Shown here piece by piece: positions 3,001 through 9,000 of a DNA stretch of 10,544 nucleotides. The stretch lies in IMG/VR virus record IMGVR_UViG_3300029841_000319, positions 1 through 10,544 of that record; one strand, 5' to 3'. Each line of letters opens with the position of its first letter. The stretch's first letter is position 1. The position numbers were made by a program. This stretch comes from a virus. Its lineage: Duplodnaviria > Heunggongvirae > Uroviricota > Caudoviricetes.

Positions 3001-6000
3001 GTTTTCATCGGCCAAATCCCACACAGGAAGGCGGCAGATATCCAGCACACTCATAACCGGATATTTAAAACCGGCACCGCGATTACCATCTGCGGCTTTG
3101 TCCCGGTATACCCAGGGTGGATCTGCATAGATTAGTGTGTATTTCTTAGTCATAAACCACCCCACAACATCCTATGCCGCTATAGTCGCCACGGCGAAGG
3201 CCGTTACCTTTTGTGATACATTGGTCCCTGCGAACCGCGATCCTTGCACGTTCAACATCACCAGAAGCAACATCCATACACTGAAGCCAAAGGTGAGCGG
3301 CAATGCGGAACTGCCCTTTTTTCTCTCTTTCAATCGCGCGTTTTTCGATCTCTATCGCCGCAGGAGTAACGGCGATAACCTTTGAAGGACGGCGCATTGA
3401 AACCTTGTTCATGTGATATTTTTCAAGTCGGCTTAACTTTCTCACTTAATCCAACCCTCTCTGAAAATTAATGCCAGCAGATAAAGCCATGCTGAAACAG
3501 AGGCCAGGAATAAGTACCATCCTGACCATTTGCTCCAGTGCCTTAGCAGCACACTCATGCAGCGTTTCTCACAGGACGATATACACGTTGCTGAACAGGA
3601 GGCTTTTTACCCTGGAACTCTGCCGGGCTTGCTGCCTGACGTTCATCAAGCCAACGCTCAACTTCGTCACGGTTCCATGCGCAGCGTTTGTCAGTGATAT
3701 ACCAGCGTTTAGGAAATTCACCTGCGCGCTCCATACGGTCGATAGTGCTCCATGACAGTGGCACCACCGCCAGGAGTTTCTTCTTATCTAATGCACCTTT
3801 CATAAATACCTCTCTTGGTTGCAGTGCGGCGCGTGTGGCGCCGCGGTGGTGGTTACATAGATGTTTCGTTTAATTCTTCCCGACGAACGCTGTAAACGTC
3901 GGTGGCTTTTGCCAGCAGTTCGTCATCATCTGAAAGTTTTTGTGCAATGTATTTGTAAGCCTTATCCAGTTCGGAGACAGTGCTGTAATTCATCGCTGCG
4001 CTGGTAAAGGCCATCAGCATTTCTTCTGGATCACGGCTATCCGCTTTACGCGTTTGCTCATCATGCTTTTTCACTGGTTTAGCGTTGATCAGACTGTTCA
4101 TTCCCGCAGCAGTAGTCGTTTGCGGAGTAATATCTCGCTCAACGCGCGGTGCCGTTTCCTGTAATTCGTCAGGGGTGTAAACACCGAGAAGTACATCAGG
4201 AGCGTGCAGGCGAGCCCATCGTTTCGTGCAAAGATAGGCAAGCTGCTGGCGCGGATCCTGTTCCCACAATGGAGAGTTACGCACTCCGGCTTGCGCCATA
4301 CTGATGGTAAGCTCACGGGGTTCTGCTTCTCCTTTAAGAACTGCTGACACAGTTACCGTCAGATTCGGTGATTTATCTGTTTTGCCGTTAACATTCGACC
4401 AGTCACCGCTCCAGCGATAATTCAGGCGTGTCGCCAGCAGGCTGGAAGAGGATACGACCGCGTTTACCAACTGTGCTTCGTAGCCTAACGTTCCGTTTAC
4501 CACATGCGTTTTCTGCGCCACGGCGAAAGGGTTCATTCCCCACTGTGCCGCCTGCATGGTCACCGCCAGACAATCGGCAGGTTTGCCTTCAAGATGTTTC
4601 GGTACAGTCGCTTTGCTTTGTGACATCAACTCCGCGAAACGCACCAGTTGATTCATGCCCTCCGGGCTGAAGATTGCCGCAGCAGTACCTACAGTTGCGC
4701 CTGGTTGTGATGTGATTGCGATATCATTGCTCATACGTACATATCCTGTTTGCGTGCCCACTCAGGGCGTTTAATGATTTCCACGCCGCCCCATTCATCA
4801 TTGATGCGGCATTCGTGATAGGTATTCAGATCCCGGCGGAACAGAGCGTGCCCGGCATCGACATCCGGCGCATCCAGCGCGAACATGCGTACCGGATACC
4901 GACCACAATCAATGCTTTCGCTCACGGCAAGAAAGAAAAAACCATGCGACTGACCAGTAACCCTCATCGCTCCTTCGCGGTACATTGCGTCCTGCACGTG
5001 GTAGCGGAATTCCTCGATGTGGCGTGCAAAACGATCCATATCTGCAACCTTTTTCACGTCGACGATCACGTTGTGCTCGTTCAGCCATTTGTCTGGACGA
5101 ATGCGGCACAACTCACCAGTCTCTTCATCATTCCAGTACATTGATGCTTCGCAGTAACCAGGTGCTTCCAGCATCCAGCGTGCCGCCGGGTGAGCCATTG
5201 CGCTATCACGCATCAGCTCCAGTTTCCGCCACTGCTCGGCATCAAGTACCGTAATCCCCATATCCGCCACATCACGAAGAAATGCCTCTTCGTCAGCTTT
5301 ACCTTGTTTCGTCCGACGATCGAATTTCGGTGAAACAATGAAGCGTTTGTCGAACTCTCCAGGCTCCAGAAGCAGACAGTGCAATGCGGTTCCCATATCC
5401 AGTGCAGACTTTTTCTCTTCGTCTTCTGGTGCTGCCTGAACCCATTTAAGAAGCGCCGGATTCTTGGCAACCATGTCCAGTTGCGACTTACTCACGCCGT
5501 CACCGGCGTGGTAGTCCTCATTGCTGATGTCGAAATAAATTCCCGGTTTCATGCCGCTTCCCTCTGCCCATCAATCCGATCCGCCAGATCCCAGCGGGCG
5601 ATAATTGCCATTGCCTCGCGCCGGTAGGCATCCATAAGTTCTTCGAACTCAGGGCTGTCTTTAGCTGCCTCCAGCACTTCCTGGCGAACGCCTTTACCTG
5701 TTACAGCGTCGAAAGTTGAGGCTAGTTGATGAAGCCGGATGCTCTCGATCAGTTCAACTTGTCGGTCATATAGCTGTTCTGACAGGCGGTAGTCCTTGTC
5801 GAATGCCAGCATGATTTTTTGAAGATTTTTCTGCTGATTAACGTTCATTATCAGCCCTCCCATATCTCGTTATCGTTGGCTACATCGCGAGCTTCTTTGC
5901 TGACGAAAGCCCACTTAATGCCTTCCTGTAAGGTGCAGAACTTCCAGCTCATGAATCCGCATGCAGTAACGCAGTACCAACCGTTGATGATTTTCCACTG

Positions 6001-9000
6001 CATAACTTGTTACCTCGGTCTGTTACTGTTGAGGTAATAATTATGCTTATTTGGTTTGGTGTCAATAGATATGAGTTAAAAAAATTACCCGTAAGGTAAT
6101 CTATCTGGCAATAAAAAAGCCGCCAGAAGGCGGCTTACTTACTGAAAAGTATGATTTTATTGTTTGTTTTTTTCGTTCTGGTTGATGACAAATTCAATGT
6201 AACTTTCGATCTTTGCTTTCTCGGTTTCGGGTAACAATGCGTAGCGCGAGCGGTCATAGTTGATGGTCGCAGGGTCGTGCGGGTGAATCAGTAATTCATA
6301 GCCGTGACGCCCGAATGCGGATGCAACATTCTCCAGGGTGGAAATGGAAACGCTGACCTCATTGTTTAACAGGCGACTGATTGTCACCTGGGCGACGCCG
6401 GATGCGCGGTGAAGTTTTCCCTGCGTTGAAAGGTCGCGGCTTTCGCTCATCCAGCGTTCCAGGTTGTGAGCCGCCAGCTGACCAATGTCGCTTGGGCCGA
6501 CAGGCTGAAAACCTTCCTGAGAAAGCGAGCGATCGATATCAAGCCAGTTACGGGGTTTATTGGCGGCAGCTTCAATTTTTCGTGCAACCTGGTCGCCGAT
6601 AACCTTCTTGCCAAGAGCCCAGCGGTTTACCAGATTTGCCTGAGTTCCAAGTTTTTCTGCCATCCGCGTCTGAACACCATTGAATTCACGGTCGATCAAG
6701 TCGTTGAGATTTTGCCTGCGGACGTCCTGGATACTTTTCATTTTCTGGAAAATCGCCTCATATATGAATCAGTAGATGATTCAATTTAAAGCAATATTAC
6801 CCAACAGGTAAATGCACCTCATAGGTAACTATCCTTGATTTTTGTTACCTTATGGGTGAATATTTATTATCTGAAATAAATATCAGGCAATAGCTATGAG
6901 CGATAACGGACATTTCGATTTCAAAAAGCACTGGCTTGCACTTACTCCGGATGAGCGTGAAGCCTTCGCACAGGAAGCCGGAACGACGAGTCACTATATC
7001 CAGACTCACTTAACAGGTAAGCGCAAAATGCCAGGTAAGGTATTGATGAATGGGCTTTTTAAAGCCTGTAAAACAAGACAATGGCTGCGCTCAAAAGCAG
7101 AACTGGCATACTTCTTCTACTCATGATATCCAGCTACAACCCTCTGTAGACCGCCACCCGGCGGTCTTTTCATATCTATTCGTACCTCAAAGGTAATAAA
7201 AAACCAAATCTGGTTGATCTTTTTTTTGTGTCAGCACAAAATGACCGTAATCCCAATACTAATAACAGGGCTTACCATGGAAATCATTACACGTATTGAT
7301 GCCGCAAAGCGCGGACTTAAACGCTACTACACCGGAAAACCATGTAAGCATGGACATGACAGTGAACGCTGGGTTTACAACGGACACTGTGTTGAGTGCA
7401 CCATGGAATCAAACCGTCGCATCAGGGCAGAGATTAAGCAGATCATGATTAATTCCTCCCCACAACACTCAAGCTGATAGCGGAGATTAATCATGAGCAG
7501 ACATGCAACAGATTGGGCCTGGGAGACAGATCCAGGTAGCTCATCATTAAAGCTCATACTGCTCTCGATGGCTGACAGAGCCGATGAATATAACCTCTGC
7601 TACCCCAGCATAGAACGCCTCGTTAAAGACACTTGCCTGAATAAAAAAACCGTGCAGGCCGGGCTTATATCGCTCATGAAAATGGGGCTTATTTCAGATA
7701 CCGGAGAGAGAAAGGGAGTGACAAAAAGAGTGCGGGTTTTCTCTCTTAATATAACCAAAAACGGGAACATTAAAGGCAACCTAGAAGGGTGTAATGAACC
7801 CGAAAACGGTAATGTTCCCGAAAACGGGAATATACCCAAAAACGGGATGTTGAATGATCCCAAAAACGGGATGTTGAATGATCCCAAAAACGGGATCCAG
7901 AACCAGTCATATAACCAGTCATTTAACCAAGAGAGGGAGAGCAGGACAAAAACCGGGGATTCTGTGCCTCATGACCCCGGCGCAAACAACGCCGTGATGA
8001 ATAACTTTGTTCCTCCTGGTGGGCCAGGGCAATTAGGCAAATTTGTCATGCATGAACAATGGCAGCCATCAGATGACTTTCTTCGGAAAAGCTCATTGCA
8101 GGGAATCTACCTGGACAGTCTGCCAACGGCACAGGAACTTGCAGAGTTCAGAATTTACTGGATGGCTGAGGGTAAGGCATACCATCAGGCACAGTGGGAG
8201 CAGAAGCTGGCAAGGCGCATCCAGTTCTGTAGACAGAAATCAGGTGAAGTCAGAAAGAGCCTTGACTGGCATAACACTGACTGGATAGATGAGGTGTGGG
8301 ATGAAATCAACTCCAGAACTTCTTAATGAGTACGATCGCTTTCGTGGTGGGCATGACCACTCGACGGCGGTTGCTTCTGCTGACGATGAAAGGGCAAAGA
8401 AGGAGCAGGTTGCAAGAATTTTCAACGAAATGTTTGTCCAGTTACAGGCTGCATTTCCAGGCAGCATCGCTGCTATCAGCGAGCAAGGAAAGCTAAACGA
8501 ATTTCGAAAACAATGGATGCTTGCGTTTCTGGAGAATGGGATCACAACAATGGAACAGGTTAACGCTGGTATGCGCCACGCCCGCGCCAGTGAATCTCCG
8601 TTCTGGCCGTCGCCAGGGCAATTTATCAAGTGGTGTAAAGACAGCAAGATGGTTCTTGGCGTCACCATTGACGATGTGATGGCGGAGTTTCACCGGTACA
8701 GCAAGGAAAAAAGTTTATATCCTGGTGGTCCCGAAAGATTCCCGTGGCGACATCCGGTTATGTACTGGGTCGTATGTGATACCCGCCGTGCAATGTATCA
8801 GCGCCAGCTTAGCGAGATTGAGGTTGAGAAACACGCGCGCAGGCTGCTCGATGATTGGGCGAAAAAGGTGGCTTCCGGACAGCAGATACCCGATCCGGTG
8901 ATCAGCATACAGGCAAAGCCAGAACCCATGAGTACACCTCCGGACACAGGGAGAGACGTTTACCATCCACCAGGGCGAAGTTTCGGGTGCATGCCTAACG

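What the first reader, a model, noticed from the sequence alone, without database searches (positions are those of the whole stretch)
5549..6003. Two unassigned proteins at the head of the PL operon, including a 50-aa Trp/Cys-rich ORF missing from the ORF track
The first cistron after the PL-like promoter is a 50-aa ORF (MQWKIINGWYCVTACGFMSWKFC...) with a good ribosome-binding site, translationally coupled to a 99-aa acidic protein. This position in lambdoid phages is occupied by kil, cIII or gam-type host-interference genes (cell-division inhibitors, FtsH modulators, RecBCD inhibitors). Neither protein resembles those I can recall, so these are candidate novel host-takeover factors.
Basis: partly seen in the sequence, partly recalled or inferred. 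Interest (0 to 1): 0.45.

Follow-up and report, generated by a model that had tools for sequence, protein, structure and literature searches.

The report
Hidden Gam homologue plus unknown small protein
The two unnamed genes that open the early-left operon of this phiV10/epsilon15-type prophage are real: the 99-residue one is a very divergent relative of phage lambda's Gam (an inhibitor of the host RecBCD nuclease), and the 50-residue one is a conserved small protein of still unknown function.

Summary
A repressor-controlled, PL-like promoter drives a tightly coupled minus-strand operon: a 50-aa ORF, a 99-aa ORF, a RecE-like exonuclease and RecT. The window is the early/immunity region of a phiV10/epsilon15-like (Uetakevirus) prophage. 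The two ORFs match phiV10 gp39 and gp38, which every database consulted calls "hypothetical".

The 50-aa ORF is a real gene: dN/dS is 0–0.12 over its N-terminal 20 codons at near-saturated dS. It is intact in 79 of 80 viral contigs, and this segment is present in about 10% of complete E. coli genomes. No homology or confident fold was found, so its function is unknown.

Overall this is a new member of a known kind plus one ordinary piece of conserved phage dark matter.

The parts
6117..6136 (-). Intrinsic terminator ending the repressor gene (6157-6741, minus strand). It separates the repressor transcript from PL.
   Evidence: 8-bp stem with 6 GC pairs followed by a T-run. Annotated as a terminator in phiV10.
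6085..6099 (.). Distal operator of PL (TTACCCGTAAGGTAA), upstream of the -35 hexamer.
   Evidence: exact match to TTACC-N5-GGTAA; 7 sites in the window against 0.14 expected. The same motif lies in the PR/PRM region at 6797-6811 and 6845-6859.
6037..6065 (-). PL-like sigma-70 promoter: -35 TTGACA at 6065-6060, 17-nt spacer, -10 AATTAT at 6042-6037.
   Evidence: 10 of 12 matches. The layout is conserved in Kluyvera, Pseudocitrobacter, Buttiauxella and Erwinia relatives.
6023..6037 (.). Proximal operator of PL. It abuts the -10 hexamer and covers the expected transcription start. It has one mismatch here and is a perfect palindrome in phiV10.
5851..6003 (-). 50-aa ORF, equivalent to phiV10 gp39, epsilon15 gp37 and phrog_898. 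A conserved small soluble protein of unknown function and the first cistron of PL. SD GAGGT at 6016-6012.
5549..5848 (-). 99-aa ORF, equivalent to phiV10 gp38, epsilon15 gp36 and phrog_856. A divergent lambda-Gam-like protein and predicted RecBCD inhibitor. SD GGAGG at 5860-5856.
4731..5552 (-). RecE-like PD-(D/E)XK exonuclease (DUF3799). Its start overlaps the Gam-like stop (ATGA).
   Evidence: PF12684, E 6.5e-22; annotations.
3853..4734 (-). RecT single-strand annealing protein. The likely ATG at 4734 overlaps the exonuclease stop (ATGA).
   Evidence: PF03837, E 9e-32. The 293-aa length matches TL-2011b and XJ55.

Best explanation
The segment is the head of the early-left (PL) operon of a phiV10/epsilon15-type temperate phage. 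When the two-HTH repressor leaves its TTACC-N5-GGTAA operators, PL transcribes four translationally coupled genes.

Gene 2 (99 aa) is a highly diverged homologue of lambda GamS. It most likely forms a dimer that mimics a DNA end and blocks the host RecBCD nuclease-helicase. That would protect linear and rolling-circle phage DNA and leave double-strand ends to the phage's own RecE-like exonuclease and RecT. Gene 2, the exonuclease and RecT thus form a gam-exo-bet-type module built from non-lambda parts.

Gene 1 (50 aa) is a genuine, strongly constrained, soluble small protein. Its conserved core (residues 1-37, with 1-21 almost invariant across genera) most likely binds a partner that is itself conserved across Enterobacterales, that is, a host component. 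Which one is unknown.

Shown here: the gene structure, the promoter and operator layout, purifying selection, the Gam fold, remote sequence homology and synteny. Inferred: dimerisation, RecBCD as the target, and any activity of the 50-aa protein.
For: Context:
- The region is 96% identical to phiV10 and relatives, where the ORFs are gp39 and gp38.
- The repressor of the near-identical phage ZX5 was verified experimentally by overexpression (PMC9782041).
- The operator motif occurs 7 times against 0.14 expected and brackets the promoter.

Gam assignment:
- The AF2 model was made without templates from an alignment containing no Gam sequences; pLDDT 93.1, pTM 0.78.
- The top five Foldseek PDB hits are all lambda GamS chains: probability 0.89-0.99, TM 0.57-0.74, and about 2 Å rmsd for four of the five. 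The next hit has probability 0.20 or less.
- A family profile searched against PDB sequences gives Gam as the only non-repeat hit below E 0.1 (E 0.08).
- PF06064 (Gam) has the best Pfam E-value of any family for any member (0.0042).
- hhalign of the family against a Gam alignment gives probability 85% and E 6e-6 over 56 columns, with a shared G...[VP]EF[EQ]E...R...IA motif.
- A Gam HMM scanned over all 917 ORFs of the window plus the whole phiV10 genome ranks this gene first in both.
- phiV10 has no other annotated Gam or Abc2.
- The size matches GamS (99 against 98 aa) and the pI is acidic.

Synteny:
- The gene is directly upstream of the exonuclease in the 17 relatives' loci read that reach its downstream gene, whether that is DUF3799 or YqaJ, and even at 97% nucleotide identity of the Gam-like gene. 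One further short contig (L098) shows only a cut, unidentified ORF after it.
- Inserted genes always fall between the 50-aa gene and the Gam-like gene, never between the Gam-like gene and the exonuclease.

50-aa gene:
- dN/dS is 0-0.12 in codons 2-21 at dS 0.5-3.4.
- It is intact in 79 of 80 IMG/VR loci.
- It is found in the same number of isolated-phage records (36), with the same genus breakdown, as the Gam-like gene.
- The segment carrying both genes is present in 559 of 5,426 complete E. coli genomes.
- Its N-terminus stays nearly invariant while the neighbouring repressor drops to 41% identity.
Against: No sequence test reaches a curated family threshold. The window protein itself gives no PF06064 hit, and the single-sequence hhalign probability is only 17%.

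The family is less acidic than GamS (net charge -5 against -10).

The first 19 or so residues, which correspond to the tip of the GamS helix that enters the RecB channel, share no conserved residues with Gam and are modelled as a helix-break-helix. The full-length superposition on RecBCD-bound GamS gives 11.5 Å rmsd.

Dimerisation and RecBCD binding were not tested.

For the 50-aa protein there is no positive functional evidence at all. Its AF2 model is unreliable (pLDDT 54.6). All associations come from one phage lineage, so linkage to the immunity module and to the recombination module cannot be separated.
Confidence: 0.65

Rival explanations
1. The 99-aa protein has the Gam fold but has been retargeted. 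It would block a different DNA-end-binding host machine, such as SbcCD, or a defence complex such as Kiwa KwaB, rather than RecBCD.
For: The N-terminal helix that inserts into RecB in the GamS complex (PMC5218532) is not conserved in sequence, and the model shows a break at residues 14-19. Net charge is half that of GamS. According to the paper read, Gam has been reported to interact with SbcCD as well.
Against: The core superposes at 1.4 Å. The position upstream of exo-recT is exactly that of gam, and all hosts are RecBCD-bearing Enterobacterales. No other RecBCD inhibitor is annotated in phiV10.
Confidence: 0.15
2. The 99-aa protein is an accessory subunit or chaperone of the phage exonuclease-RecT recombinase, not a host inhibitor.
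For: It is always adjacent to, and translationally coupled with, the exonuclease gene.
Against: Nearly identical copies (97% nucleotide identity) precede two unrelated exonuclease families, DUF3799 and YqaJ, with different RecT partners. That argues against a specific protein-protein partnership. The fold matches an inhibitor, not any known recombinase subunit.
Confidence: 0.07
3. The 50-aa protein is a phage developmental regulator, for example a small nucleic-acid-binding protein or a modulator of the switch, rather than a host-interference factor.
For: It is the first gene after PL. In all 28 loci from the three context censuses read far enough upstream it sits beside the same type of repressor/cro module. 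Its pattern suggests a compact alpha/beta module: Asn/Asp/Glu-Gly at residues 7-8, beta periodicity at residues 16-21, then an amphipathic helix.
Against: There is no HTH, no arginine-rich motif and no match to any DNA-binding family. The match to the lambda Int N-terminal domain is only 7 residues long. Its N-terminus is invariant while the repressor (41-73% identity) and Cro (57-78%) diverge, which does not fit a protein co-evolving with them. Operators downstream of the terminators at 7148-7167 and after the P-like gene suggest separate repressor-controlled units, so an N-type antiterminator is not obviously needed.
Confidence: 0.3
4. The 50-aa ORF is only a leader or coupling ORF whose translation delivers ribosomes to the Gam-like gene, and its peptide has no function.
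For: The stop and start are 2 nt apart or overlap (GTGA), and the SD of the next gene lies inside the ORF.
Against: There is strong purifying selection on the amino-acid sequence with near-saturated synonymous change. In relatives, 57-aa or 319-337-aa genes are inserted between it and the Gam-like gene without loss of the ORF.
Confidence: 0.05

Closest known systems
Lambda Gam (GamS isoform, 98 aa; Pfam PF06064; PDB 2UUZ, 2UV1, 5MBV)
   Different: Sequence identity is only 18-25%. The protein falls below every curated threshold, so Pfam, NCBIfam, PHROGs and PGAP leave it unnamed. The N-terminal, channel-entering helix is not conserved. Net charge is -5 rather than -10. It is paired with RecE-like or YqaJ exonuclease plus RecT instead of lambda Exo and Bet. 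No longer GamL-type isoform is evident.
Rac prophage and recombineering RecET systems
   Same: A RecE-family PD-(D/E)XK exonuclease and RecT are encoded in one operon under prophage repressor control.
   Different: From my own background knowledge, not tested here: Rac RecET is not known to carry its own Gam, and laboratory RecET systems borrow lambda Gam. This operon appears to supply a native Gam-type partner.
P22 Abc2 and T7 gp5.9 (other phage RecBCD modulators)
   Same: Small early proteins expected to neutralise or redirect RecBCD (PMC9836394, listed).
   Different: Neither the fold searches nor the sequence searches returned either of them. The fold found here is Gam's.
Small lambdoid PL proteins (Kil, cIII, N, Ral), as comparators for the 50-aa protein
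   Same: Size class (about 50 aa) and promoter-proximal position in the early-left operon.
   Different: There is no sequence relationship. hhalign against lambda cIII aligns 4 residues. There is no Arg-rich motif, and no hit in Pfam, NCBIfam, PHROG families of known function, or PADLOC. Its own family, phrog_898, is 'unknown function'.

Membership tests
Lambda Gam family (PF06064, host-nuclease inhibitor Gam) | Sequence match to the curated family model above its threshold | tested here: not met
   The window protein has no PF06064 hit, even at E up to 10. The best family member gives E 0.0042, sub-threshold. NCBIfam gives nothing.
Lambda Gam family (PF06064, host-nuclease inhibitor Gam) | Remote homology detectable by profile-profile comparison | tested here: met
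   hhalign of the family against a Gam alignment: probability 85%, E 6e-6, 56 columns. PDB profile search: Gam at E 0.08, the only non-repeat hit below 0.1. The reciprocal Gam HMM ranks this ORF first of 917.
Lambda Gam family (PF06064, host-nuclease inhibitor Gam) | GamS three-dimensional fold | tested here: met
Lambda Gam family (PF06064, host-nuclease inhibitor Gam) | Acidic, DNA-mimicking surface and a long N-terminal helix that enters the RecB channel | tested here: inconclusive
   pI 4.86 and net charge -5, against -10 for GamS. The N-terminal 19 residues are not conserved with Gam and are modelled with a break. The full-length fit to RecBCD-bound GamS is poor (11.5 Å).
Lambda Gam family (PF06064, host-nuclease inhibitor Gam) | Homodimer that binds and inhibits RecBCD | not testable with these tools
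   No multimer prediction job or experiment was available. The mechanism is taken from PMC5218532.
Lambda Gam family (PF06064, host-nuclease inhibitor Gam) | Gene located in the early-left operon directly upstream of the phage exonuclease/annealase pair | tested here: met
   ATGA overlap with the exonuclease gene here. The arrangement is conserved in E. coli, Salmonella, Klebsiella, Kluyvera, Citrobacter, Scandinavium, Pseudocitrobacter and Erwinia loci, with either DUF3799 or YqaJ exonucleases.
Lambda cIII (FtsH modulator) | Sequence similarity, including the central amphipathic helix motif | tested here: not met
   hhalign of the 50-aa family against lambda cIII aligns 4 columns at probability 0.5%. 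The cIII sequence was supplied from memory. There is no Pfam hit.
N-type antiterminators | Arginine-rich RNA-binding motif at the N-terminus | tested here: not met
   The sequence read directly shows an aromatic/hydrophobic N-terminus (MQWKIINGWYCV) with no Arg cluster.
Small membrane toxins and holin-like peptides | A transmembrane helix | tested here: not met
   The maximum Kyte-Doolittle 19-residue mean is 0.6-0.9, and Asn/Asp/Glu-Gly sits at residues 7-8. This is a crude hydrophobicity test only.
Phage zinc-binding small proteins (PF24184 and similar) | Four conserved metal ligands and a match to the family model | tested here: not met
   E 0.12, against a cut-off of 27 bits. Only Cys15 is invariant; Cys11 becomes Leu and Cys23 is Arg in most copies.

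The most novel reading that the evidence does not exclude
The 50-aa protein founds a new class of early phage effector. Its near-invariant 21-37-residue N-terminal module would bind and disable a host machine conserved across Enterobacterales, such as the division, replication or proteolysis machinery, or a widespread defence hub. It is carried by roughly one in ten sequenced E. coli. A second, smaller possibility is that the Gam-fold protein has a re-engineered N-terminal helix aimed at a target other than RecBCD.
Probability: 0.3. Interest if true: 0.55.

Novelty: new member of a known kind. Interest (0 to 1): 0.3.

Why it matters
Recognising phrog_856 (phiV10 gp38, epsilon15 gp36) as a Gam-type protein removes one 'hypothetical protein' from a prophage segment found in about 10% of complete E. 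coli genomes and in Salmonella, Klebsiella, Enterobacter and Citrobacter.

RecBCD inhibition is itself a trigger or a target for several bacterial defence systems, and it sensitises cells to quinolones (PMC5218532). An unrecognised, widespread Gam variant therefore matters for predicting phage-defence outcomes. It also points to a natural RecE/RecT-plus-Gam cassette that could be useful for recombineering.

The 50-aa protein is a well-defined, cheap target: short, very conserved and common. It suits a simple expression or pull-down experiment.

Tried and rejected
- Pfam, NCBIfam, PHROGs and PADLOC scans of both proteins gave only families of unknown function (phrog_898, phrog_856).
- AF2 of the 50-aa protein from a 17-sequence alignment gave pLDDT 54.6 with two helices. 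That is too poor for fold search and conflicts with the turn and strand periodicity in the sequence.
- PDB sequence searches with the 50-aa profiles returned only a chance match to a mucolipin transmembrane segment (E 0.06) and to putidaredoxin (E about 1).
- I noticed resemblances to lambda cIII (MQY.I.GW) and to the lambda Int N-terminal domain (NGYYCY). hhalign aligned only 4 and 7 residues, so both were rejected.
- The zinc-binding idea was rejected because only one Cys is invariant.
- The membrane-peptide idea was rejected on hydropathy.
- DNA- or RNA-level conservation as the cause of the invariant N-terminus was rejected because synonymous sites are nearly saturated. No Rfam family lies in the region.
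- The PPR and alpha-solenoid 'hits' of the 99-aa profile are repeat artefacts: about 3 bits per repeat, with no stretch passing on its own.
- Literature searches for the sequences, locus tags and PHROG ids found nothing.
- The AFDB50 fold library was unavailable. BFVD gave an unnamed top hit only.
- The whole-library HMM search showed the 99-aa family is tiny: 32 hits among 1.84 billion representatives. No bridging sequences to Gam were obtained.

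
Full report
**What the window is.** The 801 bases around the finding are 95-97% identical to Escherichia phages phiV10, TL-2011b, ZX5 and relatives, which are Uetakevirus (epsilon15-like) podoviruses. Against their annotation and Pfam/PHROG scans, the window reads as follows:
- integrase, 1-1251 (+ strand);
- a minus-strand operon running from about 6003 down to about 1283;
- a two-HTH repressor, 6157-6741 (minus strand), with its own terminator at 6117-6136;
- a divergent Cro-like gene, 6896-7126 (+ strand);
- replication genes.

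The equivalent repressor of phage ZX5, reported there as identical to phiV10's, was shown by overexpression to block lytic development (PMC9782041).

**The observation.** Both ORFs exist as described.

The promoter scan finds one strong minus-strand site, TTGACA-17-AATTAT at 6065-6037. A 15-bp palindrome, TTACC-N5-GGTAA, lies on each side of it, at 6085-6099 and 6023-6037. It recurs at the PR/PRM region (6797-6811 and 6845-6859). In all there are seven sites within one mismatch in the window, against 0.14 expected. This is therefore a genuine repressor-controlled early-left promoter.

The 50-aa ORF has GAGGT 8 nt upstream of its ATG. Its stop is followed two bases later by the ATG of the 99-aa ORF, whose GGAGG lies inside the 50-aa ORF. 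The 99-aa stop overlaps the exonuclease start (ATGA), and the exonuclease stop overlaps the RecT start (ATGA). All homologues begin M-N-[VI], so 99 aa is the right length, not the 104 aa that the ORF listing offers.

The 99-aa protein is acidic: pI 4.86, net charge -5.

**The 99-aa protein is a hidden Gam.** Direct searches gave only 'hypothetical protein' and phrog_856, unknown function. The family is small. A profile search of 1.84 billion representative proteins returned 32 hits, apparently all from Enterobacterales prophages.

With the more divergent members (down to 32% identity), several independent lines point to lambda Gam.
- A profile search of PDB sequences gave lambda Gam as the only single-stretch hit below E 0.1: E 0.08, query residues 30-86 against Gam residues 32-90. 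The higher-ranked PPR and solenoid entries are repeat artefacts.
- Scanning each member against Pfam, the best E-value for any family was PF06064 (Gam), at 0.0042.
- hhalign against an alignment of 20 Gam proteins gave probability 85% and E 6e-6 over 56 columns. The shared pattern is G...[VP]EF[EQ]E..[MA]...R.....IA.
- An AlphaFold model was built without templates from 17 family sequences that include no Gam. It is confident: pLDDT 93.1, pTM 0.78, five helices.
- Foldseek against the PDB returned GamS chains as its top five hits: probability 0.89-0.99, TM 0.57-0.74, and about 2 Å rmsd for four of the five. Nothing else exceeded probability 0.2.
- In the reciprocal direction, a Gam HMM scored against all 917 stop-to-stop ORFs of the window and the complete phiV10 genome ranks this gene first in both.
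- phiV10 has no other annotated RecBCD inhibitor.

**Context agrees with the Gam reading.** The gene sits where gam sits in lambda, immediately upstream of the exonuclease/annealase pair. This adjacency holds in every relative examined whose downstream gene could be identified.

It holds whichever exonuclease family follows. Klebsiella and some E. coli prophages have YqaJ plus a different RecT. In E. coli APEC E16002 the 50-aa and 99-aa genes are 96.7% identical in nucleotide sequence to the window's, yet the downstream module is YqaJ/RecT.

Insertions always fall between the 50-aa gene and the Gam-like gene, never between the Gam-like gene and the exonuclease. These inserts are a 57-aa gene (phrog_6396) or a 319-337-aa coiled-coil gene (phrog_1376).

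Tolerance of two unrelated exonucleases fits a protein that acts on the host rather than on a specific phage partner.

**Mechanism for the 99-aa protein.** The mechanism I adopt is that of GamS. [quoted passage not shown]

What is shown here is fold, remote homology, size, acidity and synteny. What is inferred is dimerisation and the target. There are three caveats:
- No curated threshold is met.
- The net charge is half that of GamS.
- The first 19 or so residues are unrelated in sequence and modelled with a break, so the full-length fit to RecBCD-bound GamS is poor (11.5 Å).

A retargeted Gam fold therefore remains possible.

**The 50-aa protein is real.** It belongs to phrog_898, unknown function. 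The family search found 24 clusters of homologues, from Escherichia, Salmonella, Klebsiella and Enterobacter.

Residues 1-21 (MQWKIINGWYCVTACGxMSWK) are invariant or nearly so across those genera, while the C-terminal third varies. This is protein-level constraint. The differences in that stretch are third-position changes. Nei-Gojobori estimates over codons 2-21 give dN/dS of 0.00-0.12 with dS 0.5-3.4. The C-terminal part gives 0.1-0.8.

The gene is widespread:
- The ORF is intact in 79 of 80 IMG/VR loci carrying the Gam-like gene.
- It occurs in the same number of isolated-phage records (36 of 50,697), with the same genus breakdown, as the Gam-like gene.
- It occurs in 8 species-representative genomes, all Enterobacterales.
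- The 455-bp segment holding both genes matches 559 of 5,426 complete E. coli genomes.

More distant copies from metagenomic contigs and Buttiauxella read MQWKFSDGFYLVTICGLMSWKF. Only Cys15 is therefore invariant, which rules out a zinc site. Cys23 of the window is a rare variant of Arg.

**What the 50-aa protein might look like.** There is no transmembrane segment; the maximum Kyte-Doolittle 19-residue mean is 0.9 or less. Three features suggest a small soluble alpha/beta module:
- the Asn/Asp/Glu-Gly pair at residues 7-8;
- beta-type periodicity at residues 16-21;
- an amphipathic helix from residue 22.

**What the 50-aa protein might do.** Comparisons with cIII, with the lambda Int N-terminal domain, and with PDB, Pfam and PADLOC were all negative.

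Its core stays constant while the adjacent repressor falls to 41% identity and Cro to 57%. I therefore favour a conserved host partner over a phage regulatory partner. This is inference only.

One locus (Buttiauxella) has the 50-aa gene but no Gam-like gene, and a 497-aa RecE-like ORF follows directly. The two small genes are therefore not strictly interdependent.

**Comparison with what is known, and verdict.** The 99-aa protein works like, and is very probably descended from, lambda Gam. It fails the curated sequence criterion for PF06064 but meets the fold, profile-profile and synteny criteria. I file it as a divergent new member of the Gam kind.

The 50-aa protein belongs to no characterised family.

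Nothing here is categorically new. The finding has two useful parts: a re-annotation of a common prophage gene, and a sharply defined small protein of unknown function.

Noticed in passing
window 1975-2064 (minus strand): An Rfam gathering-level match to sRNA-Xcc1 (RF02221): 62.9 bits against a cut-off of 53, E 9e-10, full length. It lies immediately upstream of the Ant-like anti-repressor gene at 1283-1963.
   Followed up: no
window 7182-7196, 9121-9135 and 9183-9197: Three more copies of the repressor operator motif TTACC-N5-GGTAA lie outside the PL/PR region. One sits just after the terminator that follows the cro-like gene (7148-7167), and two sit after the P-like gene, ahead of the DUF1064 gene. 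This suggests the early-right genes are split into several repressor-controlled units rather than read through by antitermination.
   Followed up: partly
window 5990-6048 (minus-strand RNA): A transcript entering from upstream, for example read-through from the repressor gene, can form a 15-bp hairpin (-15.4 kcal/mol, z -5.5). It would pair the -10/operator region with the SD and AUG of the 50-aa ORF. A PL-initiated transcript lacks the 5' arm (-3.2 kcal/mol, z 0). The pairing potential is kept in 8 relatives, but with almost no covariation, and both arms are constrained by other functions, so this is inconclusive.
   Followed up: partly
window 7791-7929: Three adjacent tandem-repeat arrays (periods 18, 24 and 12; the 24-nt unit is 100% identical over 2.6 copies) lie inside the DnaT/O-like replication initiator gene. 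They look like origin iterons, as in the lambda O gene.
   Followed up: no
window 3853-5552 compared with L001 2393-4153: The exonuclease and RecT are separate, ATGA-overlapping genes here and in TL-2011b and XJ55. The phiV10 RefSeq record annotates one 1,761-nt fused 'RecE-RecT' CDS, so there is either a frameshift difference or an annotation artefact.
   Followed up: no
L007 5147-6106, L101 2980-3993, L099 264-1244, L094 4147-4320, L007 4805-4957: There is a variable slot between the 50-aa gene and the Gam-like gene. Some relatives carry a 319-337-aa Glu/Arg/Ala-rich coiled-coil protein (phrog_1376) or a 57-aa protein (phrog_6396) there. Some have an extra 50-aa ORF (phrog_20574) ahead of the MQW gene. 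All are of unknown function.
   Followed up: partly
window 1283-2626: The region between the integrase and the methyltransferase differs from phiV10, which has a DUF1382 gene there. Here it holds an Ant-type anti-repressor (phrog_377, E 1e-66) and an ORF matching phrog_9805. This is an accessory-gene swap next to the attachment end.
   Followed up: no
L110 4001-5622 (Buttiauxella sp. B2): This is the only examined locus where the 50-aa gene is not followed by a Gam-like gene. A 497-aa ORF with a RecE-like C-terminus follows directly. Its long N-terminal extension might replace the Gam function.
   Followed up: no
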